Positions 36,961-58,205 of a stretch of 64,000 bases of DNA are shown here, piece by piece. The notes under the pieces are model-generated. The model had not been told where the DNA came from. It saw only the letters and a program-made list of their open reading frames with translations, and did no database searches. The position numbers were made by a program, and so were the translations under genes. The stretch comes from Bulinus truncatus (Eukaryota), in assembly GCA_021962125.1 (NCBI GenBank), contig JAGDYQ010000002.1, forward strand, positions 21,050,893 to 21,114,892. Reading direction: 5' to 3'. The first letter of the stretch is position 1. Every line of letters begins with the position of its first letter.

Positions 36961-37062
36961 TTACTGCTCGTAATAGTCGTACTCCTCCTCTGACTGCGGG
37001 CTGTTCTCACTTTGGTTGTAGGTGACGTATTTCACAGGACACTGCTCACTCATGATTAAACT
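36961..37062 (-). CDS. VMAT: VMAT-like terminal coding exon (SLIMSEQCPVKYVTYNQSENSPQSEEEYDYYEQ* with the TAA stop at 36961-36963). The 3' UTR continues below.
   Basis: Acceptor ctgcag in phase 0 after EEKM. The tail is acidic with a dileucine-like motif, analogous to VMAT2 AILMDHN..EDEESESD. With this exon the total CDS is 1605 nt, exactly divisible by 3. Confidence 0.65.
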   Translation of the reverse strand, partial: SLIMSEQCPVKYVTYNQSENSPQSEEEYDYYEQ

Positions 37063-38134
37063 CTGCAGAAGGAGATGGTCAGGCAATGAGGCAATCAAGT
37101 TTACAATTTATATTAGGCCTATAGATTAAAATAAAATAGCTTTCACCACAATCAGACGAACACAGATCTAACAACCTTAGATTAAACCACCACGGATCAA
37201 ACCCCGACAGATCAAACCCCCACAGATCAAATCCACATAGATCAAAATACAATATATCCGATCTGGACGTTGTGCTATCCATACGACGCATTAAATGCTG
37301 TATCTATAGAAATAGAGACATTTGACACCTTATCTGTCCCGATGTCCTCTCAGGCTTAAGGGAATTTACTTCTTCTAAAAAAGCAAAAAATAAAATCGGA
37401 ATTTAGCGTAACCATTTGCGTTAGGAAGGAAGAGCTGCATTTATTCCAATACAGTTATCTATATACATAATCGGCTAGCACAGACGGTGGTTCGACAGAC
37501 CTTCACACCGTGCGGTGTAAAGTATGTTCATGGCAATAAAAGCCACATGTCTGCACGTTACAAATACACGGCACCGTACGAGTTGAAAGCTTACATCGCT
37601 AAAAAAAAAAGTCTGAGTTCTACGTCACACCTTTGCGGAGTTAAAAAAAAACAACGCGCGTCATCGACCGTCTCTATTAAAATAGTCAGGGGAATTCCAA
37701 AATTATTGAAACTAAAAAGAGACAATGTATGTTAAATGAGGGTATGTTTGGTGCGCATTTTGTTCATCAAATAAATCTTTCTTGAATAAAAATGAAATGC
37801 TGAGAGAATTCTAAACACAACAAGGATTTCTTATTAATGAATTAAGATTTTTAAATGATATGGAGTAGTGTGCGCAAAATATGCTTAATAGTCGGGGGTT
37901 GTTTTTGTTAAGCTTCTGTACCCATAATGAGGATTATTTTCTTTGGGATGAATTATATAAAAAGCCATTTTTTGTATATAGACTGATTGTTAACGCGTTC
38001 AAATATATATTACCGAGTTGGTTGGAATAGGGGTGGGAATAAACCAAATGGTTGCGGAAAGGGGGAGGGGGAATCAAGCAGACGATTCAAGATGCAACAC
38101 CGCTATTTTTTAACCTCACGTATCTCTTTTTTAG

Positions 38135-38975
38135 AGCATTTTCGAAAAAAAAATGCTCTATTGTCCCCGTTTTGTCTGTCTGTCTGTCTGTCTGTCCGTC
38201 ATCACCCTAGATCTCAACAACCATAAGTCCTAGACCCATGATGTATATATCATTTTGTAGGTCTTGGCCTGCCATGTGTGCAGCAAAAGTTCATTTCGCG
38301 ATCTGACCTCTGAGGGCCGTAAAAGGGGGCTTATAAAGTACCGTTTTTTACTATATAAGCTATATTAACAAAGGAGCGCCATATATCTCAGCAACCATAA
38401 GTCCTAGACCCATGATGTATATATCATTTTGTAGGTCTTGGCCTGCCATGTGTACATCAAAAGTTCATTTGACGATAGGACCTCTGAGGGCCGGGCTTCA
38501 GGGCTCCGAAGGGGCTTATATATTATATATATGGCCCCATTCTACACCTTGTACGTTCAATAACCCATTCATTTGGTACGAAATACTGCAGCAAGATTTA
38601 TTAAGAAACTCATCAAATGAAATAGTAAGCTTGTGGTCTGAGTTTAATTGAAAGTATCAGAGCTATGCAACAATTGACGGAGTTTTCGGACGATTAAATG
38701 ACTACAATTTCGAATGTTTTCAATTATGAGTCCTATTTCAGTAACCACAAACCACTTGTAGTTAGATTTAAGAGAAAATATTTTTTTTTCAAATATGAAG
38801 AAACGTCTTTATAATATTTGTTTACAGATATATGCATTACACAATTGAATTTATAAACATTTCCAAAATTTACAAATATTTACTGAAAGCTAACAAACGT
38901 ACTGATACATAACATGAAAATGCGCTAACACGTCCTGTGTCCAGAATGGAACAGGCTTAATTGCTTGTTTTTAAA
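38135..38975 (+). mobile_element. Interspersed repeat family A, copy 2, located between the VMAT 3' end and exon 14.
   Basis: Homologous to 9805-10650 with the same internal duplication (atctcaacaaccataagtcctagacccatgatgtatatatcattttgtaggtcttggcctgcca present twice). Confidence 0.75.
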
Positions 38976-39485
38976 TACATCATGTTATAAAAAAAAGAAC
39001 TGTTGGAATGGGGGTGTAGGGTTGGTAAAAGAGTGTTTAACCGGGGGGGGGAGGTAGGGAGAAGTGTCACGTGGTATTGTTAACAGGGTGAACATGCAAT
39101 TGAAATGCCACTTTTTGTAATTTTGTACATTGAGACCCACTGCGATTCGGGCATGTCTTGAGTGGAAGGGGGGTGGCGGGCGGGGGAGGGAGGGAGGGAA
39201 GGATGGTCCTTTAAAATATTATGATTCAATTAAGATTAGTCAATGATATGGTGTTGTGAGCACATCACCATTTTCAACTCCAACTGCGTGCCTAATAGCC
39301 GGTCCGGGTATCGGGCCTGTTCAGCTAGTTATATTATAAGGACTCATAACAGTTACTGTCATTTAGTACGTATTGGTGATATACGGAGAAGGTTTAATGT
39401 TGACATCTGTTTGTGGCTGCAGGGCCAATGCAAGGATGAGCGTAAGTTGAGCTGCACACAAAATGTAGTAAGTGAAAATACTCAC

Positions 39486-39573
39486 CATTTTCTCCTCTTT
39501 CGCCGGCGGATTTCTCAAGAAATACAGCAAAGGGGCGTAAATCAAGTTAACTATGGCGATAATCCACAGCATC
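39486..39573 (-). CDS. VMAT: VMAT-like exon 14 (..[29 protein letters not shown]).
   Basis: Acceptor ccttcacag and donor ATG|gtgagt. It matches VMAT [29 protein letters not shown]. Confidence 0.8.
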
Positions 39574-39664
39574 CTGTGAAGGAACGATAACTCTGTTATG
39601 AAACTATTTGTGAAAATGACCAACTGAGCAATCCTCAAACTAACATAGAAACGTCTTTGACTAC

Positions 39665-39995
<331 letters not shown>

Positions 39996-40262
39996 TCTAT
40001 CTAATCTACCTATAATATCTATCTAATCTATCTATTTTATCTATCTATCAAATCTATCAAATCTATCTATCTAATCTACCAATCTAATCTATCTATCTAA
40101 TCTATCTATCTTATCTATATATCTAATCTATCTATCTAATCCATCTATCTTATCTATATATCTAATCTATCTATCTAATCTATCTATCTTATCTATATAT
40201 CTAATCTATCTAATCTGTCTATATAATATAATCTATCTCTATCTCTCTACTGTAAAACTTGC

Positions 40263-40308
40263 CAGTGAAATCCAATAGTAGAGACAATAGTTCCACTCAG
40301 CGAAGGGC
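40263..40308 (-). CDS. VMAT: VMAT-like exon 13 (PSLSGTIVSTIGFHW). It is followed by a non-canonical GC-AG intron.
   Basis: Acceptor tttcacag. It matches VMAT PSAGGAIAKAIGFPW. The only donor that keeps the frame is TG|GCAAGT, the classic GC-donor consensus. Confidence 0.65.
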
Positions 40309-40689
40309 CTGTGAAAGACAACAGTACAAGTCTATATGTGGCAGCTAAATCACAACCAACCAGCATCAAAAGATAAACGGACAATTTTTGAGTGTTCAAT
40401 TCCCCAGAAGAGATTTACTATTACTGCCAGTAAAGCAGGAGTAAGCAGTTAGGTTTAAAATATTTCGCGTGTTGTCCGTATTTCATTTTTTATTCGCAGT
40501 TATTTATATTGAACACAAGAATCTATCCTTAATTCCCAACCCTCACACAATCCCCAATTATACCTCCCACCCCCCTCACCCCCTCCAAGTTGAGGCTATG
40601 TATATAATTGACATAAACATGTAACACTAATGCCACATTAACAACACTAAGTTTTAAAATATATATAAATCAACATGAACAGCAACATA

Positions 40690-40815
40690 TATGTGTGGGG
40701 GAAGGGGTGGGGAGCGTTTTGTCTGGCCCCCCACTCTGCTTGTTTGCTCTACTTAGTAACATTTATTTCCTGCCCCCTCCCTGCTATTGGCCTGGCCCCT
40801 GCTGGTGGGGAGGGA
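40690..40815. mobile_element. Interspersed repeat family C, copy 2 (partial), in the VMAT intron between exons 12 and 13.
   Basis: Shares tgctctacttagtaacatttatttcctgcccc..ctgctattggcctggcccctgctg with the other two copies. Confidence 0.6.
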
Positions 40816-40878
40816 GAAGAAGGAGGAAACCATCACACGGAGTTTAAAAATAAAAACCATGGCTGAGGCCGGACTTAC

Positions 40879-40998
40879 CAACTGCGAAGCCCAAACAGAA
40901 AGCGACGTCAGCGATGGCGTAGACGCTACCGTAGACAGACACGTGACGTAGATCTACCAGGTAGCCCATGTGGGGCATCATGGCAGAGTCCACCATAC
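40879..40998 (-). CDS. VMAT: VMAT-like exon 12 ([39 protein letters not shown]).
   Basis: Acceptor cttcaccag and donor gtaagt. It is near-identical to [44 protein letters not shown]. Confidence 0.85.
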
Positions 40999-41816
40999 CT
41001 GGTGAAGAGTTAAGAATGATATCGTAGCATCGTGGTTATGTAAGATACGATGTATCCTTTGAATCTGAACGCCAAAGTCTGCTGAATCCGCTATTTTTCT
41101 ATAACCCTGCAGCCCCCCTCCCCCCCCCCCCCCCCAAGTTTTCCAAACAACGGTCTGTGACGCATTTACACATCAATCCGTCTCGAAGATCCACATTCCC
41201 GTCTTCATCGTTTAAAAAAAGCCGACGGATTCAAACCCCATGATCAAATTTATACCTATGCCAATTGCTGCTAGCATCATGAAAACATCTGAGTAAAAAA
41301 AATTAAATATAAAATAACCCGCATACAATTTTACAATGGAAATAAAAAATAAATTATGTTGGGCCTAAAACAAAACTGTAGATTAAAGGTAAACATTAAA
41401 AAGCGGTTAAAACTTTAAAAAAGTAATTTATGGCGGGAATGAAGGCCAAAAGGCACTTATACAGCTTTATGTACGAACTAGATCAAAGGCCCGGTACCCG
41501 GACCGGCCAGTATTATTTTTTAGCCAAGCAAGAGTTAACTCCCCTTGAGTGAGACCAAAATTTTGGAATTCCCCAGTCTATTTTTAGCCGCGGAAGTTAT
41601 ACACACGCTCGCCCGTACGTACGCCAGGCTAGACGATTATGTATTAGATTTCAGATCAAGTCCAGCATTAAGATACTAATTATGTCTATGAATTTTATTA
41701 AGATATAAGAGGCGAACACACACACACACACACATAAAAAAACATATGTACACGCACATACCTATATAAATCAGGAAAGTACTAACTTACTGTGTTACTA
41801 CTTACCAATAGCGAAA

Positions 41817-41880
41817 CCCATTCCAAAGTTTGGGGCTATCAGATGACCAATATTCTTTGAAAATGGGAGCTGTGAAAACA
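41817..41880 (-). CDS. VMAT: VMAT-like exon 11 (LPFSKNIGHLIAPNFGMGFAIG).
   Basis: Acceptor ttttcacag and donor gtaagt. It matches VMAT [22 protein letters not shown]. Confidence 0.8.
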
Positions 41881-41918
41881 TATAAAGCATATAAAGTATA
41901 TGCATATACATTATGAGC

Positions 41919-42115
41919 TTATAAAAGATAAACATATAAAATGTAACCATATAAAATAAATGTAGCCATATAAAGTGTAACCATATAAAGTGTAACCATA
42001 TAAAATGTAACCATATAAAGTGTAACCACATAAAGTGTAACCATATAAAATGTAACCATATAAAGTGTAACCATATAAAGTGTAACCATATAAAATGTAA
42101 CCATAAGGAGATGAA
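41919..42115. repeat. Tandem repeat of 13-bp units (gtaaccatataaa with a/g variants), about 15 copies, in the VMAT intron between exons 10 and 11.
   Basis: Direct tandem copies. Confidence 0.9.
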
Positions 42116-42448
42116 TCTTCGTTAAGGTTGATGTCGGCTGAGGTATCAATTAATTTAATGGATTCCCATCATGCATAGTATATAGTTGACAAATCATTGT
42201 TGTTACATAAAATACTTATATTAAATTATGTGCAATAGTTTCCATTATCTTTACGACCGTGAAGCTGCTTGTCATCATTCTCTTATAATTAGATAGCGGC
42301 AGGTTAATTGAGGTGGATATTAGAAACGAATGAAAAAAAAAACATTCACACTAACTGACCATTCGGACTTATAAATGATACCGCAAGCTAAATAAGGGTG
42401 TGTGTGTGTGTGTGATACCTGAGGAAGGAAAAGTGACACTTTACTTAC

Positions 42449-42500
42449 CGCAAAACAACAAATTGATATGATGAACATTCCTATCATGGCGCTTAACCAC
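42449..42500 (-). CDS. VMAT: VMAT-like exon 10 (WLSAMIGMFIISICCFA).
   Basis: Acceptor ccccag and donor gtaagt. It matches VMAT [21 protein letters not shown]. Confidence 0.75.
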
Positions 42501-43649
42501 CTGGGGAAACAAAAAATGGACAATGGTCAACAGGTCCAGTCTGTTGTCTGTTTTCCGACAGTCTGTGTGTCTGATCATTGTCTGTCTAAATTTATAATTG
42601 TATAAACTTTAAAACAACGCGATGAAAATTGTAGAGTGAAAATAAATTATTACAATTTACAAAAACCAAATTGTTAACAAAGATATCAATGAAATATTAA
42701 TTATAATACAGTGGGTATTCGGTTAACGAACTTTATCCTTCCACAATTATGTTCGCTATCCGAATCGTTCGTTAACCGATCATCGATTTACCATATATGT
42801 TAATGGAAATTCCATCAATTCGTTCTACAGATCCTACAAATTTAATTTTTTTTTTTTAAATGTCATGTACAAGTATAATTTTTTAAGTAAGTTTATTTAT
42901 TACAAATTTAATACATACGCACAACAAATTGAGGACTGGTGTCGGGTGTTCCGAGAGCCAAGAGGTTTTCGTAAAAATTACAAACAGCTCCTGACTTATG
43001 CAAGTTCAACATTCGTAAATTCGGACTAACGTAAAAAAAACAAAAATCTCTCGCGGAACTTGGATGTCAACAGGATGTGGGGGTGTTAGTTTACACATCG
43101 ACAGATGGCCAGGCGCGCCGAGAGGGTGGGGGTCAGGGGGTCATTGCCAGAGGGCCCGCATCTGTAAGGGGGCACGACCGCCCCGACGATGTCCATTTTT
43201 TCACGACTCATTGTTTATTAAGAGGCCCGCAATGATGTCCTGCCCTGAGACACTTGTCGCCTCTCGGCGCCTCTGCACATGGCGACCGCTCAACACTAGC
43301 GGCTCCAGGCCACAACAACGGGTTTTTATTTGAGGTTTTCCGCCTTTTCGTTTGAAGTTAAACGTTGAAAGAAATGACTCAAGCGTTCCTAGAAATAAAC
43401 TCGGCTTCCGTGCGACTTGAACTAATGGATCCTAACACTTCCCGCTTTTTGAACGTTCAGAGAAAAGTAGAAGACAGACTGTCTGTAGTTTTTGTTCGTT
43501 ATCCGAATATTGTTCGTTGTCCGAACACAAAAAGCTTTCATGAAAGTGTTCGTTGTCCGATTCGTTCGCTGTCCGAAAAGTTCGTTAACCGAATACCCAC
43601 TGTATAGAAATAATATTGAATTTTGCAAGAATTTTAACACAATATAGTC

Positions 43650-43739
<90 letters not shown>

Positions 43740-43740
43740 C
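43650..43740. repeat. (CTAT)n microsatellite of about 22 units, in the VMAT intron between exons 9 and 10.
   Basis: Seen directly. Confidence 0.95.
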
Positions 43741-43779
43741 TAAATACACATATAAACGATATAATGTTTGTAATTGTAC

Positions 43780-43858
43780 CTGCCCATCTTGTGTGCCAGT
43801 GGGCCAAACAAATTTGTGCCTAAAGCGTATGAGATACTTGCAGGCAAGAAAGCGATCC
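43780..43858 (-). CDS. VMAT: VMAT-like exon 9 ([27 protein letters not shown]).
   Basis: Acceptor tttccag and donor gtacaa. It matches [31 protein letters not shown]. Confidence 0.8.
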
Positions 43859-44949
43859 CTGGAAATGAAACACAAATAAAATATTACAATCTTTCAAGAA
43901 TTTTAATTAATTAAGATGACAAGATGACCAATATTAACTTTTAACCCTAACTATTAGTGTTACATTTATTGTTTGTCCAACTGTAGAATAGCTAACATTT
44001 TATCAGACGTCTATATGTAACAGTAATAAAGGGAAATAAATATAGAAAAATTGAAAATCGTGGATAACTTTCCCTTCATTCAAAACCACATAATGGATTA
44101 CTTTAGAGAAGAAGGTGTAACTTTGGCCGTAAGTGGATTGTATGACCGGTCAGTAAGGCTCAAGGAATCCAATCTCAGCAGACCCTTTTTTGCAATCCTG
44201 CAGCTGTCACAGATAGGGGTGCCCCGCCCCCCCCCCCCTCAAAGTGCATTCACTGTCACTACAACCATCGGGAGTGTAACAAATGAAGAGATTTGGAGCA
44301 TAGCGGTCTCTTTATATATCGTTTTCCCATTCGTGTTCCATTTAGCTCCTGAGGGAAGCACTGGATCTCAACAGAGTCGAGCAGGGCACGTTGAGAGACA
44401 GTCTTCTTGAGTTGGGGAGGTATGGGGGGATGGGGGGAATGGGGTCTATGACGTTCTTGCCTTTCACGTTCAGTAATTCTTCTTCAAGTTTGTTTCGTCA
44501 TCGCTGCGCATATTGCTGATGCTGTCCACAGATCCCATACCCTCTGTCAAAACTACCAGCAACCTGCGTTATTTTAGCTTTTGTTTGGAAGGGGCAAGAA
44601 AGGAAGGCCTAATGTTATAGCGGAGGAGACTGGCCGTTAGATTAAACACGTAATTGCACCATTTACTAATTTTTAGAGCTTGAAAGGTAATTCTCAACTG
44701 CAGCGTTTTACTAACTAGAATGATAACAATATCAAGTGATGCATTTATCGCACTTATATAAATACCAAGTATATTTTTTAAATTGATTGATGTTCTAAAA
44801 CGTACTTTTTTTATTCAATGTTCTATACTTAGTCCTGTCGGAGATGGGCGCCACCAAGTCTATGAGCCCACAGAAAGGACGTAAGCAACCATATTTCCCC
44901 CCCCCCCCCCAATGACCGTATCGGTTAAGTAAAAAAGTAAAGTTCCCTT

Positions 44950-45220
44950 AACCTTACCGGGCTATATGGGCAGATGATGTGTAGAATTTATCTGTTTCTA
45001 TAACCACTGCATATGAAGTGATTTTGTTGTTAACACAACGCCCAGCCGCCTTTGCTTCCCCAACTTAAATCTGGTACACATTAAAAGCTGGGCGGACTTG
45101 TGGGAAGACTTTGCACCAAATAACAGCTGGACAAATTCCATGGGTCTCACCGAGAATCGAACCCATGACTCTCAGGTCGACGGTCGAGTATCTATACCAC
45201 TCGACCATCCGTCCCACTAA
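44950..45220 (-). mobile_element. tRNA-derived SINE, copy 2, in the VMAT intron between exons 8 and 9. It has the tRNA-like head gggacggatggtcgagtggtatagatactcgaccgtcgacctgagagtcatgggttcgattctcggtgagaccc.
   Basis: A and B box-like motifs (TGGTATAGATAC and GGTTCGATTCTC) are present. It is homologous to the copy at 22130-22390. Confidence 0.7.
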
Positions 45221-46118: not shown

Positions 46119-46214
46119 CTTGCTGCCACTCGGAAGAATGCATGGTCTTATACATCCAGATGGGTAGAGATGGTTCCATCATTGCGATGCCCATGTTTCC
46201 AAATGTGATGGAGC
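46119..46214 (-). CDS. VMAT: VMAT-like exon 8 ([32 protein letters not shown]).
   Basis: Acceptor ctag and donor gtgagg. It matches VMAT [32 protein letters not shown]. Confidence 0.8.
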
Positions 46215-46373
46215 CTAGAGGGTTATGGTAGAAAATAAAATAAAACAAAAAAAAAACATAACAATAACATATAAAAGTGACGTAAAGCTGGGGTAACCAA
46301 TCGAGGGTGTACTAGTGTGACCAATAGAGGTTGTACTAATGTAACCCCAGTTACTACAAATGTATCACTTTAC

Positions 46374-46475
46374 CTGCACACAAAAGAATATATGGGTCCC
46401 GCAGCAATTCTTTGAAGGCGGTACCTTCTTGTGACTCTGGTTTGACTGACGGCTGAAGAGCCAATAGCTGCAGGC
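46374..46475 (-). CDS. VMAT: VMAT-like exon 7 ([34 protein letters not shown]).
   Basis: Acceptor ctgtctag and donor gtaaag. It matches VMAT [35 protein letters not shown]. Confidence 0.8.
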
Positions 46476-48775: not shown

Positions 48776-48865
48776 ATCCATCCAAAAATGCTAATCCAGC
48801 AAGAATGAGAAATGGCGCCTCTTTGCCTGCAAACTCATACAGAACACCGCCAAACGGGGGACCAA
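48776..48865 (-). CDS. VMAT: VMAT-like exon 6 ([30 protein letters not shown]).
   Basis: Acceptor ccacag and donor gtgagc. It matches VMAT [30 protein letters not shown]. Confidence 0.8.
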
Positions 48866-49189
48866 CTGTGGACAGAACAAAACAGTGAGAGAGAGAAACA
48901 AAAAATTCAAAATGGGAAAACCATGTTACAGCATTTGAGACTGAGGCCAGATGACATTATCGCATAAACATTTGGGGTGTAGATGACTTTTGCCTGCTCG
49001 CGCTTTCGTGCGCGCGCGTGTGTGTGAGAACGGAATGGGCTAGTATCGGACTGTGTATTGAAGGTAGTGAGTCGTTGGTGAGCGAGTACATTTTAGTCAT
49101 GTAGTGAAGGTGTGGCTGAAGAACTTGTTACGGTTAGTGATACTATAACGCAACGAATTTGAATTGATTTTGTTTTGTGTCACTCTGCA

Positions 49190-49505
49190 TGTCACGATTA
49201 GTGTCATACGTGAGGGATGTCAGTCTGTGAATGTCACGATTGGTGTCATATGTGAGGAATGTCAGTCTGTGAATGACACGATTGGTGTCATATGTGAGGG
49301 ATGTCAGTCTGTGAATGTCACGATTGGTGTCATATGTGAGGAATGTCAGTCTGTGAATGACACGATTGGTGTCATATGTGAGGGATGTCAGTCTGTGAAT
49401 GTCACGATTGGTGTCATATGTGAGGGATGTCAGTCTGTGAATGACACGATTAGTGTCATATGTGAGGGATGCCAGTCTGTGAATGACACGATTAGTGTCA
49501 TATGT
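49190..49505. repeat. Tandem repeat of roughly 62-bp units (gtcacgattggtgtcatatgtgagggatgtcagtctgtgaat), 5 copies, intronic.
   Basis: Direct tandem copies. It explains the ORF at 49164-49637. Confidence 0.9.
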
Positions 49506-49869
49506 GAGGGATGCAAAAAGGGACTTTGGGGGAGGGTAAATGACTTATTGAAAACCGGAAGTAATTTCTGCGGACTGAGATCCCCTCCTTTCTTTTTCGC
49601 TACTATTGTAAGTAATCAATCTAATAAACAGGTATAGAAGTAATCGATGCCAAAGTAAATCGATACTCCTCAAACGTATGGTTCCCCATTCTGTATTGAA
49701 TGTTATAGTTTAGATTGTACGATTATGTTTATCTTATCATGTTTTTAATTTAAATGGGGGTGAAATTAAATATAAAGTGGAAAAAAAGTTAGATTTATTT
49801 CATTTTATTAAGGGTCTTAAACAGAGTAATAAATTCAGGCTAAAATACCTGTCGAAGTCGCGAAAACCA

Positions 49870-50505
49870 TCATATATGACAATAGTTCCTATATGACAAT
49901 AGTTCCTATTTGAAATTAGTTTCTATTTGACAACAGTTCCTATTTGATTATAGTTCCTATTTGACAATAGTTCCTATATGACAATAGTTCCTATTTGAAA
50001 ATAGTTTCTATTTGACAATAGTTCCTATTTGACTATAGTTCCTATTTGACAATAGTTCCTATTTGACAATAGTTCCTATTTGAAAATAGTTTATATTTGA
50101 CAATAGTTCCTATTTGAAAATAGTTTATATTTGACAATAGTTCCTATTTGACTATAGTTCCTATTTGACAATAGTTCCTATTTGACAATAGTTCCTATTT
50201 GAAAATAGTTTATATTTGACAATAGTTCCTATTTGAAAATAGTTTATATTTGACAATAGTTCCTATTTTATTATAGTTCCTATTTGACAATAGTTCCTAT
50301 ATGACAATAGTTCCTATTTGAAAATAGTTTATATTTGACAATAGTTCCTATTTGCAAATAGTTTATATTTGACAATAGTTCCTATTTGAAAATAGTTTAT
50401 ATTTGACAATAGTTCCTATTTGATTATAGTTCCTATTTGACAATAGTTCCTATTTGACAGAAGCTGTTAATTGACAATAGTTTCTATTTGACAATAGTTT
50501 CTGCT
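49870..50505. repeat. Minisatellite of about 37 copies of a roughly 17-bp unit (caatagttcctatttga, alternating with aaatagtttatatttga).
   Basis: Direct tandem copies with no unique spacers. Confidence 0.9.
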
Positions 50506-51308
50506 GAAAGGAGACTCTTTGGCTTGCAATATTAAATGGGATGGGTGGGTTGGTGTTTGTGGGTAGACAGAGTGGCCCCGATGATATAGTTTGTCAGGGG
50601 GGGGCCTGAACTTACCTGAGTGCGGTCCTGGTGCAGTTGTGTGTGTGTGTGTGTTTGTATTTAAACTATAGGGTCAGTATTGAAGGGCAGACAAGTACAC
50701 ATTTTCACGTGTGGAACATAAACACTCTGGGCAGGCTTGGTTTTTATTTTTGTAATCATTTTGGTTTTTTTTATGTGTCTCTCAATGACCTTGACATTGC
50801 AACGTAGACAGCTACCCATTAAGGGGGCGGGGGGGGGGGGTGGAGAACGCCTTTCCGTTCGACTGAAAGGAAAAAAAAAGAGATTTATTTTGGAACTTGA
50901 GTTAGAGACATTGGCTAATGGGGTCAAAGGTCAACGCAATGGCCGATAATACATTTTGATAAAAGAAATTATGGAGTTCTGTTTCACAAGTTACATTACA
51001 TCCCTTGTATGAATTAAAGTCTTTTGAATTCTTTGATTCGGTAGAATGCATTGGTTGTGACCCTAATATGCATACTGTAGTTTAAGGGTTCAAATCTCCA
51101 CGAGCCGAATCCCCCCATACCCATGTCTCCCGTGGTGCTTCCTATAGTAACTGCATACTCGACTATAGTAGAGATAAAATCAAACATTCCGATAATGGAA
51201 GGGAGGGTCAAATGTTTTAATGTAGAAAAAACCTATACAGTTGTGTTTCAGGATAGAACAAAATATATTTAAATATAATTATAATGCAAAATATAAAACT
51301 GCTTTCAT

Positions 51309-51354
<46 letters not shown>

Positions 51355-51356
<2 letters not shown>

Positions 51357-51533
51357 TCGATTCCGCTTAATTGGGACACATCGGGACCGAGGCTTTTTGT
51401 CCCAATTAAGCGGCTGTCCCAATTAAAAATACAAATTTACTATTGGCTTCTTGGTTTGGTTTCTTTGAGATTTGTCCCAAAAAAGCGGCAGTCCCAACTA
51501 AGCGGTGTCCCAATTAAGCGGAATCCACTGTAT
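51355..51533. mobile_element. Tc1/mariner-type MITE of about 180 bp with 26-bp terminal inverted repeats (cagtcgattccgcttaattgggacac ... gtgtcccaattaagcggaatccactg). It is inserted in a (TA)n tract that would give a TA target-site duplication, and it lies in the VMAT intron between exons 5 and 6.
   Basis: TIRs are seen directly. An internal second copy of gtcccaattaagcgg is present. There is no coding capacity. Confidence 0.7.
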
Positions 51534-51640
51534 ATATATAAATATAATATATACAGATATATATCGCTATATAAAACGTGCACATTAAAAGTTAGAGTAT
51601 TTGTATTATTTTGTCAGTAGAATGTTCCACTTCAACTTAC

Positions 51641-51733
51641 CTAGAACCCCCAACGCCAAGCCTCCAAGAGCTATGCCCATGGCGTTGCCCCTCTCCTTAT
51701 CGTCCGGATAATACGTGGCTATCATGCCCATCC
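51641..51733 (-). CDS. VMAT: VMAT-like exon 5 ([30 protein letters not shown]).
   Basis: Acceptor tttccag and donor gtaagt. It matches [34 protein letters not shown]. Confidence 0.8.
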
Positions 51734-51759
51734 CTGGAAATACATAAAAAGGAAATCAC

Positions 51760-52235
51760 AGTCGAGTCAGCAAATAGGTAACGGTCGAGTTCACCAATAA
51801 ATAACAGTCGAGTCAGCAAATAAGTAACGGTCAAGTTAACCAATAAATAACAGTCGAGTCAGCAAATAAGTAACGGTCGAGTTAACCAATAGATAACAGT
51901 CGAGTCAGCAAATAGGCAACGGTCAAGTTAACCAATAAATAACAGTCGAGTCAGCAAATAAGTAACGGTCGAGTTAACCAATAGATAACAGTCGAGTCAG
52001 CAAATAGGCAACGGTCGAGTTAACCAATAAATAACAGTCGAGTCGACAAATAGGTAACGGTCGAGTTCACCAATAAATAACAGTCGAGTCGACAAATAGG
52101 TAACGGTCGAGTTAACCAATAAATAACAGTCGAGTCAGCAAATAAGTAACGGTCAAGTTAACCAATATATAACAGTCGAGTCAGCAAATAGGCAACGGTC
52201 GAGTTAACCAATAAATAACAGTCGAGTAATAAAGA
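51760..52235. repeat. Minisatellite of roughly 60-bp units (aataggtaacggtcgagttaaccaataaataacagtcgagtcagcaa), about 8 copies, in the VMAT intron between exons 4 and 5.
   Basis: Direct tandem copies. Confidence 0.9.
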
Positions 52236-52730
52236 AAGAATTAAAAAAAAAAATCAGCGCCACAAGCTGAGCATCCGTTTTAACGTTTTTTTCCGAGTAT
52301 TGGTTTTCAAATTTCTGCACAATAACTTTATGTAAACAGTTTTTTTGTTTTCTTCTAAATTTACTGATCACGATTTCTGTTGCACTGTTGAATTATATTC
52401 GTTGCATAATTTCCAACACAGGGCCAATAACTGGAATTAAATATTACTTGGCTACCATCTTGGATTGACTCATCCATGCGGATAGGTCAAAAAGTTACAC
52501 ACCCCTTCTTTTTTTTTTCGCAACACCAGACACCTGACCAGTGCTCGATTTAAGAAAAAAAAAACAGTGCCGGGGAGGAAAAAAAAGTCTGCAGAGCCGG
52601 GGATAAATGTCTATGGTTTCATCCCCGGCAGGGATATATTAGCGAAAGCAAAGCTGGGGATGACAGTTGTCAGTGCCATGGATATCCGCGGCGGTAAATC
52701 GAGCCCTGCACATGACCAGCAACCACCTAC

Positions 52731-52814
52731 CTGCAACACTGGAACAGGATGACCCGATACCTTGTACAGTCCGGGCAACGAACAAGACAACGTAGGTTTC
52801 ACCAAAGGCAAATA
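52731..52814 (-). CDS. VMAT: VMAT-like exon 4 ([29 protein letters not shown]).
   Basis: Acceptor ttttacag and donor gtaggt. It matches VMAT [29 protein letters not shown]. Confidence 0.8.
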
Positions 52815-52919
52815 CTGTAAAACAATTATAAAAGGAATAAAAACAAAATAGAATGTAAACATGAAATAAACCTTTACAAAAACCTGTATAGGAATAATAA
52901 TAAAGGAGTTATTTAAATG

Positions 52920-52971
<52 letters not shown>

Positions 52972-53174
52972 TATATATTTCTTGAATAAATGAGTACTAA
53001 AGAATGGGATGTTTATCTCTGTTATCTTATTAAACACTAATGGGACGGTTTTTACAGTGCCATTTCTTTCATTCCCACCAGTCATTAGTGCAATGGCCTT
53101 GAAGGCGCCACGGGACCAATACATCTCCCAAATATACAGTGTGTAAGGTACACCGTCAAAGTTTAGTAGTTAAA

Positions 53175-53365
53175 TGATTTGCTGGCAACAGGCCCGAAGC
53201 GTGCGTGGGGGGGGGGCTGGGGGGCGGGCCCCTACTGCGTTTTGTCTGGGTCCCCTCTGCTTGTTTGCTCTACTTAGTAACATTTATTTCCTGGCCCCCC
53301 TCCTGCTATTGGCTTGGCACCTGCTGTATAATTTTCACGCTACGGGGCTACACGGGAGACATACA
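53175..53365. mobile_element. Interspersed repeat family C, copy 3, in the VMAT intron between exons 3 and 4.
   Basis: Near-identical to copy 1 across gcccgaagcgtgcgtgggggg...ctgctgtataattttcacgctacgggg. Confidence 0.65.
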
Positions 53366-53689
53366 CGGCTGATTGGATACGCCCCGTGAGTTGGACACGT
53401 AACTCACGGCATGCACATCCCGCTCACGTCCAAAACGTTTATCTAGCCATACACACACAACAATGGATTGATTATTAACAACGAAATAAAAAATTTGTTG
53501 TAACACAAAGTTAACCGAAAATGTACAATTAAAAATATAAATAATTTAACTTGAACAAACGAAAACTACAAAAACAACGTGACAACGTGTACTTTGTATT
53601 GTACATCTCTATTATTCTTTTTTTTTAATTTTTTTATTAAAACTTTCAACTGTTGAAGATTTGATGTTGATTTACTTACTGATAGTCGA

Positions 53690-53748
53690 TACCATCATTA
53701 TGAAGAATCCAGTAAACATGGGTATCGTGTATCCGACTCTGAAAAACG
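53690..53748 (-). CDS. VMAT: VMAT-like exon 3 (RVGYTIPMFTGFFIMMVSTI).
   Basis: Acceptor ttttcag and donor gtaagt. It matches the VMAT segment IGYPIPIFAGFCIMFVSTI. Phase is consistent. Confidence 0.8.
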
Positions 53749-53864
53749 TAAACAAAACCGCCATGACAGTTTTTGATTTAAATATTTATTAATAAGAATT
53801 ATGCACCCACGCACGCACTCACACACACACACACACACAAACAAACACATATACACTCTCTCAC

Positions 53865-54030
53865 ACAGTGCCGTAGCGAGCTTTACTCGCGCCCGGGGCA
53901 CAATACCTTTTTAGCGCCGCCTCCCCTCATGCGAAAATCATATAATATTATATGTTAAATATACCATTTGGCGCCCCTTTGTGAGTAGCGCCCGGGGCAT
54001 GATGCACCCCCTTGCTCACCCCTTGCTACG
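53865..54030. mobile_element. Palindromic repeat family B, copy 3, in the VMAT intron between exons 2 and 3.
   Basis: Homologous to 3615-3830 and 28655-28835. Confidence 0.65.
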
Positions 54031-54865
54031 TCTCTGCTCTCATACACACATGCGCACACACACTCGCAGACATACATACACACACACACACACACTCGCA
54101 AACATCTCTATATTTATAAAATTGAAAGATATAAAGATCTGTACTTCAATTTAGGAGTATCATACTCATGTCCTACATACCTACGAATAGTACACAAATA
54201 TACACGCATGAAATATAAACCGAAACAATCTTCAAATTATCCGAACTTAAGTTATCCGGCCTAACTCTGTCAATGTCTTCTAACAAACATGATACATCAG
54301 ACTCTACGAGGACAACATTTTTGCGGTGCTCGGTTTTTTCCTAAACTTTATGTACCAGACAGAACGACTGACGCATTTAAGCTTATGGCCTGACAAACAG
54401 TTCATTGAATCAACAGCGTTTTTTTTTTCAAGCATCTTGTTTGAAAAGTTTTTAATATAATTTTTAACTTATCATATTTAAGACAATTTTTTTATTTCTC
54501 TGTTAATTTAATTGATAACTCTAAGACTCGTGTTTACATTCTCTGTTGCTATTAATTATTTTTGTCTCCTTTTGTTTATCCTAGAATTAGCGTGATGTTT
54601 GAATTGACCAATTACGGCAGTGGTCCCCCCCCCAAACATTAGATAAATGATAGCGGTATTCTAATTTTTTTTATATAGGATAAATTACACTTACTATAAA
54701 TAGCCATATCATTGTAATCTATTGGAAACAATTAATGATAGAACATAATTGATCATTGAGAAGAAGTTCGATAGCATCAAATTGCGCGGTGAGATTTATT
54801 ATTTTTTTCATCATTCTATAAAAGTGCACCACAGATGAGGTGAGTAATGTCCCTTGGTAACTCAC

Positions 54866-55280
54866 CTGTTTGTTATGGGCCCTATGAACGGGTTGGCTAT
54901 CAGCTGCATGATGGCCTTGGACGCGAACATAAACCCCACCTCGATGTTCTCTGCATCCAGGTCCGCCCTCCTCGGGGATCTCTCGGTCACCGTGACGTAC
55001 ACCGCGGACAGGTTATGCCACACCGTCTCGTTGTGGCAGACCTCCCGCACCTCCCTCCGCCCGTAGGCCTGGGAGTAGTACCTCGGGGAGTCCTTGATCC
55101 TGGACAGCACGTACCCGGCGGGGCCCTGGAGAGTGGAGACGTTGAGCCCTGAAGAGACGGACACGTTGCGGCAGCGGAGCTCCAGGCCCGGCGTCTCGGT
55201 GATCCCCAGCTCCATCTTGGTCCGGTTCATGGCGACGTAAGGGTTCTCAAGTTTGCGAAGGAAGTTGGGGACGATGGGAA
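54866..55280 (-). CDS. VMAT: VMAT-like exon 2. It encodes the large glycosylated lumenal loop and TM2 (..[28 protein letters not shown]).
   Basis: Acceptor is cccttag|TT and donor is AG|gtgagt. The motif FASKAxxQLxxNPFIGxxTNR is diagnostic for SLC18. N-glycosylation sites (NRT, NVS, NET) sit in the loop. A long minus ORF covers the exon. Confidence 0.85.
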
Positions 55281-56009
55281 CTAAGGGAGAGAAGAGACGC
55301 AACATGGTTCAACACTTGGGATTCGTTTATGGAGAAATACATTTTTTTCAAGCACAAAAAAAAAATGACATCGGTAAAACTCAGTGAGAAAAAATAGATA
55401 TTCTTAAATTGATGAATGGCCAAACTACTATTTAAACGATAACTTCAGAATTCAGACTTTCAGAATGTCGATTATTTTTAGCCGATGAATACATTTTATT
55501 ACATTTTGAAATAAATGACCTGAAACAGATTCAGATAAGCAGTCCTTAGGAAAACAATACGCTGTAAATCTAAAAACAACGCAACACCGCAGACACCACA
55601 CTTGCACCCAGAGGCCAAGTAGCAAGTTTTGATAACAGAACTTATTATTTTGTGTATAAATCTAAAAAAAAACAAACAAACAAAACATTGCGATCAGTGG
55701 CAGGCCTTGATCTATCAGGCGCCATGTAACGTAAGTTGAAACCTGCCAATAAGGCTTTAGTTGCGTCTCAAAAAGAAGCTATGTCTGAAATTCTTTTAAA
55801 AAACAACGACAAATAAAATGGCTATCAAAGTCTCCGTCTGGCGTTGAAACAGATGGCGCTATTCCCTTACTTTCTCTAACAAAAATTCAGAGAGATGTTT
55901 ACTTTCAAGAAATTGAATGTAAGGAAAAAAAATGACTTATACAAACTCGTGCAAAGTGTTTCATTTGATGGGAACTATTCTGGTCTTCATCAATTAGTTA
56001 GACATCAGT

Positions 56010-57360
56010 AATTGTGACTCCTACATACCTACACAACACTGAGTCAGACCCCATTGTGACTCTTACATACATACATAACACTGAGTCAGACGTCATTGTG
56101 ACTCCTACATGCCTACATAACACTGAGTCAGACCTCATTGTGACTCCTACATACCTACATAGCACTGTCAGACCTCACTGTGACTCCTACATAACACTGA
56201 GTCAAGCCCATTGTGACTCCTACATAACACTGAGTCAGACGTCACTGTGACTCCTACATACCTTCATAACACTGTCAGACTTCATTATGACTTCTACATA
56301 ACACTGAGTCAGACATCACTGTGACTCCTACATACTATATAACACTGAGTCAGACTTCATTGTGACTCCTACATAACACTGAGTCGGACCTTATTGTGAC
56401 TTCTACATAACTACATAAGACTGTCAGACTTCATTGTGACTCCTACATACCTACATAGCACTGTATGACCTCACTGTGACTCCTACATAACACTGAGTCA
56501 GACCCCATTGTGACTCCTACATAACACTGAGTCAGACATCACTGTGACTGCTACATACTACACAACACTGAGTCAGACGTCATTGTGACTCCTACATACC
56601 TACATAACACTGAGTCAGACCTCATTGTGACTCCTACAAACCTACATAGCACTGTCAGACCTCACTGTGACTCCTACATAACACTGAGTCAGACCCCATT
56701 GTGACTCCTACATAACACTGAGTCAGACATCACTGTGACTCCTATATACTACACAACACTGAGTCAGACTTCATTGTGACTCCTACATACCTACATAGCA
56801 CTGTAAAACCTCACTGTGACTCCTACATAACACTGAGTCAGATTTCATTGTGACTCTTACATACCTACATAACACTGAGTCAGACTTCATTGTGACTTCT
56901 ACATAACACTGAGTCAGACATCACTGTGACTCCTACATACTACATAACACTGAGTCAGACCTCATTGTGACTCATACATAACTACATAAGACTGTCAGAC
57001 ATCATTGTGACTCCTACATAACACTGAGTCCGACGTCACTGTGACTCCTACATACCTAAATAGCACTGTCAGACCTCACTGTGACTCCTACATAACACTG
57101 AGTCAGACCCCATTGTGACTCCTGCATACCTACTTAACACCGAGTCAGAACTCATTGTGACTTTTACATACCTACATAACTCTGAGTCAAACCTCATTGT
57201 GACTCCTTCATACCTACATAACACTGTCAGACCTCACTGTGACTCCTACATACCTACATAACACTGTCAGACTTCATTGTGTCTCCTACATAACACTGAG
57301 TCCGACCTCGCTGTGACTCCTACATAACACTGAGTCAGACCTCCATGTGACTCCTACATA
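56010..57360. repeat. Large 1.35 kb minisatellite of about 40 copies of a roughly 33-bp unit (ctacataacactgagtcagacctcattgtgactc), filling most of VMAT intron 1 and ending 2 bp from the exon 1 donor.
   Basis: Direct tandem copies. Confidence 0.9.
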
Positions 57361-57361
57361 C

Positions 57362-57476
57362 CTACGACTGTCAGCAACATGTTGTCCAGGAATAGGGCCA
57401 CAAATACGATGACCAGAACCAACTTCCGCGATCGCCGGAACTTCTGCAGAAGGTCATAGGGTCTGCATGACGACAT
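57362..57476 (-). CDS. VMAT: VMAT-like (SLC18 vesicular monoamine transporter) exon 1. The ATG is at 57476 and the exon encodes MSSCRPYDLLQKFRRSRKLVLVIVFVALFLDNMLLTVV.
   Basis: The N-terminus and TM1 match the vertebrate VMAT motif RRSRKL..FIVFLALLLDNMLLTVV. The donor is gtatgt immediately after the partial codon G. Phase is consistent with exon 2. Confidence 0.8.
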
Positions 57477-57919: not shown

Positions 57920-58205
57920 ATGATTTTGTCAGATGGTCATCCATGTTTTTGTCAGATGGTCATCAATGATTTTGTCAGATGGTCATCAATATATTTGACA
58001 GAGGTCATCAATGATTTTGTCAGATGGTCATCATTGTATTTGTCAGATGATCATCAATGTTTTGTCAGATGGTCATCAATGATTTTGTCAGATGGTCATC
58101 AATGATTTTGTGAGATGGTCATCAATGATTTTGTGAGATGGTCATCAATGATTTTGTCAGATGGTCATCAATGATTTTGTCAGATGGTCATCAATGATTT
58201 TGTCA
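57920..58205. repeat. Tandem repeat of 22-bp units (gtcatcaatgattttgtcagatg), about 13 copies, roughly 450 bp upstream of the VMAT ATG.
   Basis: Direct tandem copies. Confidence 0.9.

What the first reader, a model, noticed from the sequence alone, without database searches (positions are those of the whole stretch)
36961..57476. Complete, deeply conserved VMAT-type (SLC18) transporter gene reconstructed across 15 exons
Every exon carries a VMAT-diagnostic segment. These include RRSRKL-TM1, the glycosylated lumenal loop, FASKAxxQLxxNPFIG, MGM..YxDDx[53 protein letters not shown] and an acidic tail. All 14 junctions keep phase and the CDS totals 1605 nt. Having 14 introns argues for a VMAT rather than a VAChT orthologue, because VAChT genes are typically intronless. 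This is a monoaminergic-neuron marker locus in an invertebrate genome.
Basis: partly seen in the sequence, partly recalled or inferred. Interest (0 to 1): 0.6.

Follow-up and report, generated by a model that had tools for sequence, protein, structure and literature searches.

The report
Snail vesicular monoamine transporter (VMAT) gene

Summary
Observation confirmed. On the minus strand, 57476 to 36961, 15 exons splice into a 1605-nt open reading frame of 534 aa plus TAA. All the quoted motifs are present. Thirteen introns are GT-AG. Intron 13 is GC-AG.

Interpretation supported.
- The protein scores 625 bits against solved human VMAT2, 577 against VMAT1, 346 against VAChT and 52 against SLC18B1.
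- It is 81-88% identical to gastropod proteins named VMAT and nests within them in a tree.
- It keeps every charged and gating residue of the VMAT2 transport site.
- All 14 introns sit at the same position and phase as in a limpet and an annelid VMAT gene. Thirteen of the 14 match bovine VMAT2. A frog VAChT coding sequence has no introns.

The window is Bulinus truncatus. The locus is already in GenBank as 'hypothetical protein Btru_028335' (476 aa). That model reads through the GC donor to a stop and so lacks TM12 and the C-terminal tail. A second, near-identical locus (Btru_002369) is truncated in the same way.

The kind of gene is already known. The only new items are a corrected gene model and one non-canonical splice site. 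No RNA evidence was available. Low interest.

The parts
57362..57476 (-). Coding exon 1 (115 nt). Holds the ATG at 57476-57474 and encodes MSSCRPYDLLQKFRRSRKL plus TM1, including D31 and N32 (human D33, N34). Donor TAG|gtatgt.
   Evidence: An in-frame TGA lies five codons upstream. The following intron matches all other VMAT genes examined in position and phase.
54866..55280 (-). Coding exon 2 (415 nt). Encodes the large lumenal loop 1, with five N-X-S/T sequons (N57, N77, N85, N122, N128), and TM2 ([16 protein letters not shown], with F157 and K160).
   Evidence: This is the fastest-evolving exon (pN 0.19 against Physella).
53680..53738 (-). Coding exon 3 (59 nt), TM3.
   Evidence: The exon is also 59 nt in Physella, Lottia, Capitella and Bos VMAT2.
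52731..52814 (-). Coding exon 4 (84 nt), TM4, with R211, Q214, S218, S219 and S222 (human R189, Q192, S196, S197, S200).
51641..51733 (-). Coding exon 5 (93 nt). Encodes [15 protein letters not shown] (cytoplasmic loop) and TM5.
48776..48865 (-). Coding exon 6 (90 nt), TM5/TM6 region.
46374..46475 (-). Coding exon 7 (102 nt), the central cytoplasmic loop.
   Evidence: Bovine VMAT2 has an extra 69-nt intron inside this exon.
46119..46214 (-). Coding exon 8 (96 nt), TM7, with E333 and W339 (human E312, W318). H345 occupies the position of human C324.
43780..43858 (-). Coding exon 9 (79 nt), TM8, with F355 and Y362 (human F334, Y341).
42449..42500 (-). Coding exon 10 (52 nt), TM9.
   Evidence: The public Biomphalaria model replaces the homologous exon with a repeat-derived false exon.
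41806..41869 (-). Coding exon 11 (64 nt), encoding LPFSKNIGHLIAPNFGMGFAIG (start of TM10).
40879..40998 (-). Coding exon 12 (120 nt), encoding [34 protein letters not shown] (TM10-TM11), with D420 and D447 (human D399, D426).
   Evidence: (E 2e-18).
40263..40308 (-). Coding exon 13 (46 nt). It ends at a non-canonical GC donor (CTG|gcaagt; GC at 40262-40261).
   Evidence: The junction sits at the same position and phase as a GT donor in Physella, Biomphalaria, Lottia and Capitella. The flanks of the GC site score above 52 of 55 real donors in VMAT orthologues.
40247..40262 (-). Start of intron 13. Reading through it gives QVLQ then TAG (40249-40247), which is where the public 476-aa model ends. 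A weak alternative in-frame GT donor (ACA|gtagag, exon end at 40251) would add QVLQ and give 538 aa.
   Evidence: The alternative donor scores below all 55 real donors.
39486..39573 (-). Coding exon 14 (88 nt). Encodes TM12 ([19 protein letters not shown]) and [10 protein letters not shown]. Absent from the public Bulinus model.
   Evidence: Against Physella pN is 0.066 and pS is saturated, which indicates protein-level constraint.
36961..37062 (-). Coding exon 15 (99 nt + TAA). Encodes SLIMSEQCPVKYVTYNQSENSPQSEEEYDYYEQ, which completes the ExxxLI motif and forms the acidic tail. Absent from the public Bulinus model.
   Evidence: (aligns to the human VMAT2 C-terminus AILMDHNCPIK...).

Best explanation
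The region is the single-copy-type VMAT gene of the planorbid snail Bulinus truncatus. It is the invertebrate co-orthologue of vertebrate SLC18A1 and SLC18A2.

It is transcribed from the minus strand. Fifteen coding exons spread over 20.5 kb are spliced into a 534-aa, 12-helix major-facilitator protein.

By homology, the protein sits in the membrane of synaptic and dense-core vesicles. There it exchanges lumenal protons for cytoplasmic serotonin, dopamine, octopamine/tyramine or histamine by alternating access. Protonation and substrate binding would use the conserved acidic residues D31, E333, D420 and D447, together with K160 and R211. F157, W339 and F355 would form the lumenal gate. The C-terminal EEKMSLI motif and acidic tail would direct trafficking.

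Shown here: gene structure, intact ORF, orthology, residue conservation, purifying selection and conserved intron positions.

Inferred, not shown: transport activity, substrate range, glycosylation, expression in monoaminergic neurons, and real use of the GC donor of intron 13.
For: - Gene model: 15 exons, 1605 nt, no internal stop. All acceptors are AG. There are 13 GT donors and one GC donor.
- Identity of the window: the protein is identical over aa 1-472 to B. truncatus KAH9524952.1.
- Orthology: full-length matches of 87% to Physella acuta and 81% to Aplysia californica 'synaptic vesicular amine transporter'. Solved structures score 625 bits for VMAT2, 577 for VMAT1, 346 for VAChT and 52 for SLC18B1. 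Pfam MFS_1 E = 3.5e-51. In the NJ tree the VMAT|VAChT split has 100% bootstrap support and the gene tree follows the species tree.
- Mechanistic residues listed for human VMAT2 in PMC10959523 are all conserved: D33, N34, F135, K138, Q142, R189, Q192, S196, S197, S200, E312, W318, F334, D399 and D426.
- Purifying selection against Physella: pN 0.083 against pS 0.78 for the whole CDS. Every exon, including 14 and 15, shows the same pattern.
- Gene structure: all 14 introns match Physella, Lottia and Capitella VMAT genes in position and phase. Thirteen of 14 match bovine VMAT2 and 9 of 14 match Apis.
Against: - No transcript evidence was available for any junction. Neither the exact 534-aa protein nor the 538-aa variant is in the protein collection. 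A search with the C-terminal 112 aa found no Bulinus-derived fragment.
- The one non-canonical GC donor makes the last two exons depend on an unverified splice.
- The cysteine pair that forms the lumenal disulfide in human VMAT2 (C117-C324), described as critical for transport in PMC10959523, has no counterpart (R139, H345). This is true of most invertebrate VMATs, however: only 6 of 120 hits have Cys at the loop-4 column.
- Function and expression are entirely by homology.
Confidence: 0.93

Rival explanations
1. The locus makes mainly or only a truncated 476-aa protein, as in the public annotation. The GT-to-GC change would have disabled the intron-13 donor, so translation runs into the intron and stops at TAG. 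That product would be an 11-helix protein without TM12 or the trafficking tail, meaning the gene is a hypomorph or is decaying.
For: - The donor is GC, whereas Physella, Biomphalaria, Lottia and Capitella have GT.
- Both annotated B. truncatus copies end in HWQVLQ*.
- No transcript evidence could be found for the 13/14 junction.
Against: - The GC donor has near-perfect flanks (CTG|GCAAGT). It scores 7.6 bits, above 52 of 55 genuine donors, which is the usual signature of functional GC-AG introns (established knowledge).
- Exons 14 and 15 are intact, have a strong acceptor, and are 96% (exon 14) and 88% (exon 15) identical in protein to Biomphalaria.
- Against Physella those exons show pN about 0.06 with saturated pS.
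- The truncation is the expected artefact of a gene predictor that does not allow GC donors. The genome was annotated with funannotate (PMC8861042). That this caused the truncation is my inference.
Confidence: 0.04
2. The gene is as described, but intron 13 is spliced from the canonical GT donor 12 nt downstream (exon 13 ending at 40251). This would insert QVLQ into the TM11-TM12 loop and give 538 aa and a 1617-nt CDS, as the main product or as an alternative isoform.
For: That donor-acceptor pair is in frame and has no stop. It avoids invoking a non-canonical splice site.
Against: - The donor ACA|GTAGAG scores -2.7 bits, below all 55 genuine donors.
- No orthologue has an insertion here. Exon 13 is 46 nt in Physella, Biomphalaria, Lottia and Capitella.
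Confidence: 0.07
3. The gene is a different SLC18 member: VAChT (SLC18A3), SLC18B1, or a divergent VMAT-like paralogue.
For: Many of the quoted motifs are shared by VMAT and VAChT (compare). Molluscan VAChT, SLC18B and insect portabella sequences were not in my tree.
Against: - VAChT scores 346 bits and SLC18B1 52 bits, against 625 for VMAT2.
- Identity is 40-43% to VAChTs against 57-88% to VMATs.
- The VMAT|VAChT split has 100% bootstrap support.
- The intron pattern is that of VMAT genes, while the frog VAChT CDS is intronless.
- Nearly every species contributes one gene in this clade (multiple listings are isoforms of the same gene), and the gene tree follows the species tree.
Confidence: 0.01

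Closest known systems
Human/vertebrate VMAT2 (SLC18A2; solved structures such as 8ucj, 8x3k, 8jsw) and VMAT1 (SLC18A1; 8tgg)
   Same: - About 58% identity, with an end-to-end alignment from TM1 to the C-terminal tail.
- All proton- and substrate-site residues and gate residues are conserved.
- It has the same C-terminal KEEKM-x-[IL][IL] motif followed by an acidic tail.
- Thirteen of 14 intron positions and phases are shared with bovine VMAT2, and ten internal exon lengths are identical.
   Different: - It is one pre-duplication gene, not a VMAT1/VMAT2 pair.
- Lumenal loop 1 is longer and unalignable.
- There is no Cys at the positions of the C117-C324 disulfide (R139, H345).
- Y433 is F454, as in 110 of 120 hits.
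- The snail has an intron 13 that cattle lack, and cattle have an extra 69-nt intron in exon 7.
Gastropod VMAT orthologues: Physella acuta XP-type 'synaptic vesicular amine transporter-like' (P0002), Aplysia californica (P0005), Biomphalaria glabrata 'vesicular monoamine transporter' (P0003)
   Same: - 81-88% identity.
- Identical exon count. Apart from exon 2, exon lengths are identical to Physella's.
- Same start codon position.
   Different: - Bulinus uses GC rather than GT at the intron-13 donor.
- The public Bulinus model is truncated at 476 aa.
- The public Biomphalaria model carries a false 694-nt repeat exon in place of exon 10.
VAChT (SLC18A3)
   Same: It belongs to the same SLC18A subfamily, has the same 12-helix MFS fold, and shares many TM motifs (for example [17 protein letters not shown]).
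   Different: - Only 40-43% identity and 346 bits against 625.
- The VAChT CDS is intronless in Xenopus and is on a single exon in Ixodes (PMC7524744). This gene has 14 introns.
SLC18B1 (polyamine/monoamine vesicular transporter)
   Same: MFS fold and SLC18 family membership.
   Different: It scores only 52 bits (E 4e-13), no better than bacterial drug pumps such as NorA.

Membership tests
VMAT (SLC18A1/A2-type vesicular monoamine transporter) | Major-facilitator (MFS) transporter domain covering both six-helix halves | tested here: met
   Pfam MFS_1 E = 3.5e-51. The protein aligns to solved human VMAT2 over query residues 10-51 and 123-527, with one single-residue gap across TM2-TM12.
   Scores are 625 bits for VMAT2, 577 for VMAT1, 346 for VAChT and 52 for SLC18B1. 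Among the 120 best hits in the 5.8-billion-protein database, every specific functional name is a VMAT name; the rest are generic or unnamed.
VMAT (SLC18A1/A2-type vesicular monoamine transporter) | Phylogenetic placement inside the VMAT clade | tested here: met
   In an NJ tree of 27 sequences and 493 columns, the VMAT|VAChT split has 100% bootstrap support (200 replicates). The heterobranch gastropod group containing Bulinus also has 100%. The outgroup was vertebrate VAChT only. SLC18B and portabella were not included.
VMAT (SLC18A1/A2-type vesicular monoamine transporter) | Titratable and polar residues of the proton/substrate site (human D33, N34, K138, Q142, R189, Q192, S196, S197, S200, E312, D399, D426; list from PMC10959523) | tested here: met
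   All are identical in the snail protein: D31, N32, K160, Q164, R211, Q214, S218, S219, S222, E333, D420 and D447. In the seven of these columns that were tabulated, 114-120 of 120 homologues keep the same residue.
VMAT (SLC18A1/A2-type vesicular monoamine transporter) | Hydrophobic lumenal gate (human F135, W318, F334) | tested here: met
   F157, W339 and F355.
VMAT (SLC18A1/A2-type vesicular monoamine transporter) | Large N-glycosylated lumenal loop between TM1 and TM2 | tested here: inconclusive
   A loop of about 105 residues with five N-X-S/T sequons is present. Actual glycosylation cannot be tested from sequence.
VMAT (SLC18A1/A2-type vesicular monoamine transporter) | Disulfide between lumenal loops 1 and 4 (human C117-C324) | tested here: not met
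   R139 and H345 occupy those positions. Only 6 of 120 VMAT homologues have Cys in the loop-4 column. This is therefore a feature of vertebrates and some arthropods, not one that defines the family. Snail loop 1 has C75, which is conserved in 102 of 120 homologues, and C120.
VMAT (SLC18A1/A2-type vesicular monoamine transporter) | C-terminal dileucine-like motif (KEEKMAIL in human) followed by an acidic cluster | tested here: met
   KEEKMSLIM...SEEEYDYYEQ aligns with human KEEKMAILM...GEDEESESD. A trafficking role is inferred.
VMAT (SLC18A1/A2-type vesicular monoamine transporter) | VMAT-type exon-intron structure | tested here: met
   All 14 introns match Physella, Lottia and Capitella in position and phase. 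Thirteen of 14 match Bos VMAT2 and 9 of 14 match Apis.
VMAT (SLC18A1/A2-type vesicular monoamine transporter) | Proton-coupled, reserpine/tetrabenazine-sensitive monoamine uptake; expression in monoaminergic neurons | not testable with these tools
   Needs transport assays and in situ hybridisation or single-cell RNA data.
VAChT (SLC18A3) | Highest similarity to VAChT; coding sequence on a single exon nested in the ChAT gene | tested here: not met
   Identity is 40-43% and the score 346 bits. This gene has 14 introns, whereas the Xenopus VAChT CDS is intronless. tblastn found only one set of SLC18 exons in the window. I did not specifically search for ChAT exons.

The most novel reading that the evidence does not exclude
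The GT-to-GC change at the intron-13 donor is shared by both near-identical B. truncatus copies and lies 14 nt upstream of a 585-nt (ATCT)n microsatellite that fills the intron. It could make this splice inefficient. A substantial share of transcripts would then retain the intron and encode a VMAT without TM12 or its trafficking tail. That would be a natural, lineage-specific reduction or regulation of vesicular monoamine loading in a schistosome-transmitting snail.
Probability: 0.05. Interest if true: 0.3.

Novelty: already known. Interest (0 to 1): 0.12.

Why it matters
There is little to learn about biology in general. VMAT is a textbook transporter, its orthologues are routinely annotated in molluscs, and this locus is already in GenBank.

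The practical value is as a curation note.
- The public B. truncatus models Btru_028335 and Btru_002369 are truncated by a missed GC-AG intron and are unnamed.
- The public Biomphalaria glabrata VMAT model contains a false exon.
- Work on serotonin or dopamine signalling, neuron-type markers, or molluscicide and behaviour targets in schistosome vector snails should use the corrected 534-aa model.

The analysis also gives a clean example of intron positions kept unchanged from annelids and molluscs to mammals.

Tried and rejected
I relied instead on the sequence alignment to solved structures.
- Look-ups of the genomic context of the two Bulinus proteins (P0001, P0241) found nothing on record. 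The second, homeologous locus could not be examined.
It returned only vertebrates. The claim that VAChT is intronless could therefore be tested only in Xenopus and from tick literature, not in a mollusc.
- A search with the C-terminal 112 aa, meant to find Bulinus transcript-derived ORFs crossing junction 13/14, found none. The exact 534-aa and 538-aa proteins are not in the collection.
- A perfect TGACGTCA (CRE) palindrome lies 8 nt upstream of the ATG and looked like a possible promoter element. It is not conserved upstream in Biomphalaria or Physella. The apparent copies there are the codons ATG-ACG-TC. The octamer occurs 10 times in the window. I rejected it as chance.
- The Aplysia locus has 5184 N bases, so two junction regions could not be resolved. 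I left it out of the intron map.
- Rfam and tRNA scans of the whole window found nothing.
- A Kyte-Doolittle scan picks up only the more hydrophobic helices and was not used as evidence.
- The first bootstrap attempt timed out and was redone with a faster script.

Full report

Yes.

I located exon cores with tblastn, using human VMAT2 as a guide. I later verified that it is identical to the sequence of PDB entry 8ucj printed, over residues 12-53 and 101-508.

I then fixed every boundary by reading the flanking splice signals. The result is 15 coding exons:

| Exon | Window coordinates |
|---|---|
| 1 | 57476-57362 |
| 2 | 55280-54866 |
| 3 | 53738-53680 |
| 4 | 52814-52731 |
| 5 | 51733-51641 |
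| 6 | 48865-48776 |
| 7 | 46475-46374 |
| 8 | 46214-46119 |
| 9 | 43858-43780 |
| 10 | 42500-42449 |
| 11 | 41869-41806 |
| 12 | 40998-40879 |
| 13 | 40308-40263 |
| 14 | 39573-39486 |
| 15 | 37062-36961 |

Together they make 1605 nt, or 534 codons plus TAA, with no internal stop.

An independent exact spliced mapper that I wrote reproduced the same model. All 14 acceptors are AG behind a pyrimidine tract. Thirteen donors are GT. The donor of intron 13 is GC (CTG|gcaagt). An in-frame TGA lies five codons upstream of the ATG.

**2. What organism and locus is this?**

The spliced protein is identical over residues 1-472 to 'hypothetical protein Btru_028335' (KAH9524952.1, 476 aa) of the freshwater snail Bulinus truncatus.

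The public model then continues 'QVLQ' and stops. It reads straight through the GC donor into intron 13, to the TAG at 40249-40247. It therefore lacks exons 14 and 15, which encode TM12, the PPAKEEKM motif and the acidic tail.

A second B. truncatus protein is truncated in the same way. It is Btru_002369 (KAH9525786.1), it lies on another scaffold, and it differs at two loop residues, S81P and S108A. B. truncatus is reported to be tetraploid (PMC8861042), so this is probably the homeologous copy. That is an inference, because the locus could not be fetched.

The genome was annotated with funannotate. A predictor that disallows GC donors would produce exactly this truncation, which is also my inference.

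**3. Is it VMAT?**

- Against all solved structures, the best matches are human VMAT2 (625 bits, E about 1e-186) and frog and sheep VMAT2. Then come VMAT1 (577 bits), VAChT (346 bits) and SLC18B1 (52 bits, no better than bacterial NorA).
- Pfam finds MFS_1 at 3.5e-51.
- In the large protein database, the full-length best hits are gastropod proteins named synaptic vesicular amine transporter or vesicular monoamine transporter. Physella acuta is 87% identical and Aplysia 81% over the full length. Biomphalaria is 88% identical, but the local alignment covers only 71% of the query. Other molluscs, annelids, nemerteans, arthropods and vertebrate SLC18A2 follow at 55-72%.
- Identity to vertebrate VAChTs is 40-43%.
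- A neighbour-joining tree (27 sequences, 493 columns, 200 bootstraps) splits VMAT from VAChT with 100% support. It places the Bulinus protein inside the heterobranch gastropods with 100% support, and it broadly follows the species tree.

The gene passes it.

**4. Is the machinery intact?**

The VMAT2-tetrabenazine structure paper (PMC10959523, read) lists three sets of residues:
- the polar and charged network D33, N34, K138, Q142, R189, Q192, S196, S197, S200 and D426;
- the further acidic residues E312 and D399;
- the hydrophobic gate F135, W318 and F334.

Every one is identical in the snail protein. In the ten of these columns that I tabulated, the same residue is kept in 114-120 of the 120 homologues.

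Two differences from human VMAT2 stand out.
- Y433 is F454, which is the majority state (110 of 120).
- The two cysteines of the loop-1/loop-4 disulfide (C117, C324) correspond to R139 and H345. The loop-4 column is well aligned, and Cys occurs there in only 6 of 120 homologues. This disulfide is therefore not a general VMAT feature.

Lumenal loop 1 carries five N-X-S/T sequons. The C-terminus, KEEKMSLIM...SEEEYDYYEQ, aligns with the human KEEKMAILM motif and its acidic tail.

**5. Is the gene under selection, including the last two exons?**

Against the Physella orthologue, synonymous sites are saturated (pS 0.78) while pN is 0.083. Every exon shows this pattern. Exon 14 has pN 0.066 and exon 15 has pN 0.048. 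The loop-encoding exon 2 is the most relaxed, with pN 0.19. This argues against a pseudogene, and it argues that exons 14-15 are coding.

**6. The GC donor**

The orthologous intron is at the same position and phase in four other species, each with a GT donor: Physella (CATTG|gtaaat), Biomphalaria, Lottia and Capitella.

I scored donor flanks (positions -3 to -1 and +3 to +6) with a matrix built from 55 genuine donors of VMAT orthologues.
- The Bulinus GC site scores 7.6 bits, above 52 of the 55. A near-perfect flank is the usual property of working GC-AG introns (established knowledge).
- Other in-frame donor/acceptor pairs without a stop exist. The only one that keeps exon 13 whole and uses the same acceptor is a GT donor 12 nt downstream, which would add QVLQ. 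It scores -2.7 bits, below all 55, and no orthologue has such an insertion.

I therefore favour the 534-aa product. No transcript evidence could be found.

**7. Gene structure and the intron argument**

Exon lengths 59, 84, 93, 90, 102, 96, 79, 52, 64, 120, 46 and 88 are identical in Bulinus, Physella, the limpet Lottia and the annelid Capitella.

On a protein alignment, all 14 Bulinus introns coincide in column and phase with those three species.
- Thirteen of the 14 coincide with bovine VMAT2. The bovine gene lacks intron 13, so its exon is 134 nt (46 + 88), and it has an extra 69-nt intron within exon 7.
- Nine of the 14 coincide with the honeybee.

The structure therefore dates at least to the bilaterian ancestor.

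The Xenopus tropicalis VAChT coding sequence is a single 1575-nt exon. In the tick Ixodes, the whole VAChT ORF lies on one exon inside the first ChAT intron (PMC7524744). From my own knowledge, the C. elegans VAChT gene unc-17 does contain introns, so the rule is not universal. Shared intron positions are the stronger evidence.

**8. Surroundings**

- tblastn finds only one set of SLC18 exons in the window.
- There are no tRNA or Rfam RNA genes.
- The introns are rich in tandem repeats. A 1.25-kb minisatellite (56011-57365) runs right up to the exon-1 donor. An (ATCT)n microsatellite fills 585 of the 689 nt of intron 13. Other repeat arrays lie in introns 5, 10 and 11.
- Downstream on the same strand, from 1 to about 18200, lie exons of a gel-forming-mucin-like gene. 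It has TIL, VWD and weak C8 domains and long 45-nt tandem repeats. Minus-strand translations there are Thr/Ser-rich.
- A perfect CRE palindrome just upstream of the ATG is not conserved and is not rare in the window.

**9. Verdict**

This is the normal VMAT orthologue of a gastropod. It is already present in public databases, truncated and unnamed, and it is annotated under its proper name in sister species. Novelty is nil as to kind.

The useful by-products are:
- a corrected 534-aa model with one GC-AG intron;
- the recognition of a second, equally mis-annotated copy;
- an error in the Biomphalaria model, where a 694-nt repeat-derived exon replaces the true 52-nt exon 10;
- a clear demonstration of intron-position conservation.

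Transport function, glycosylation, neuronal expression and use of the GC donor remain inferences that RNA-seq and transport assays would settle.

Noticed in passing
window 1-18200, minus strand (for example 17908-18177, 7920-8213, 5773-5961, 7375-7515; repeats 1-1776 and 1902-2424): Exons of a neighbouring gel-forming-mucin-like gene. Pfam hits are TIL (E 1.3e-8 and 1.8e-6), the C-terminal part of VWD (E 2.4e-8) and a weak C8. There are also 45-nt tandem repeats, 39.5 and 11.6 copies. Minus-strand translations in these arrays are Thr/Ser-rich, in part with Glu.
   Followed up: partly
window 40262-39574 (intron 13 of the VMAT gene): This is the only non-canonical (GC-AG) intron of the gene. 585 of its 689 nt are an (ATCT)n microsatellite (39665-40249) that starts 14 nt after the donor. 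The public 476-aa annotation ends at the read-through TAG (40249-40247). A weak in-frame GT donor 12 nt downstream would add QVLQ.
   Followed up: yes
not in the window: B. truncatus KAH9525786.1 (Btru_002369, P0241): A second B. truncatus VMAT locus lies on a different scaffold. It differs by only S81P and S108A and is truncated at the same read-through stop. It is probably the homeologue of a tetraploid genome. Its locus could not be retrieved.
   Followed up: partly
L008 (Biomphalaria glabrata), about 14251-14310 versus the annotated 694-nt exon 10: The public B. glabrata 'vesicular monoamine transporter' model (748 aa) replaces the true 52-nt exon 10 (TM9) with a 694-nt exon made of an APPVIAPPAI repeat (Pfam Extensin_1). 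The genuine exon is present in the intron and is 85% identical in protein to the Bulinus exon.
   Followed up: yes
window 56011-57365 (intron 1): A 1.25-kb minisatellite with 34/74/191-nt periods abuts the exon-1 splice donor (57361-57360), so GTATGTAGG-like donor look-alikes recur through the start of the intron. Other intronic arrays lie at 51753-52227 (46-nt unit), 49873-50499 (17-nt), 49189-49513 (42-nt), 41888-42105 and 43651-43739.
   Followed up: no
snail protein residues R139 and H345 (exon 2 and exon 8, around window 46140): The cysteines that form the loop-1/loop-4 disulfide in human VMAT2 (C117-C324), described as critical for transport, are absent. Only 6 of 120 VMAT homologues have Cys at the loop-4 column: vertebrates, Apis, Daphnia and one unnamed sequence. 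Loop-1 Cys C75 is instead conserved in 102 of 120.
   Followed up: partly
window 57484-57491: A perfect TGACGTCA (CRE-like palindrome) lies 8 nt upstream of the start codon. It is not conserved in the Biomphalaria or Physella upstream sequence, and the octamer occurs 10 times in the window, so it is probably chance.
   Followed up: yes
L003 15591-15659 (Bos taurus SLC18A2): Bovine VMAT2 has a 69-nt GT-AG intron, with an in-frame stop if retained, inside the equivalent of snail exon 7. It lacks snail intron 13. That is one intron gain and one loss relative to the lophotrochozoan pattern.
   Followed up: yes
window 60236-60934 and 57902-58214 (upstream of the gene): The region upstream of the gene holds CT-rich low-complexity DNA and a 23-nt minisatellite (13.7 copies). 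No convincing coding exon or 5'-UTR exon could be recognised without RNA data.
   Followed up: no
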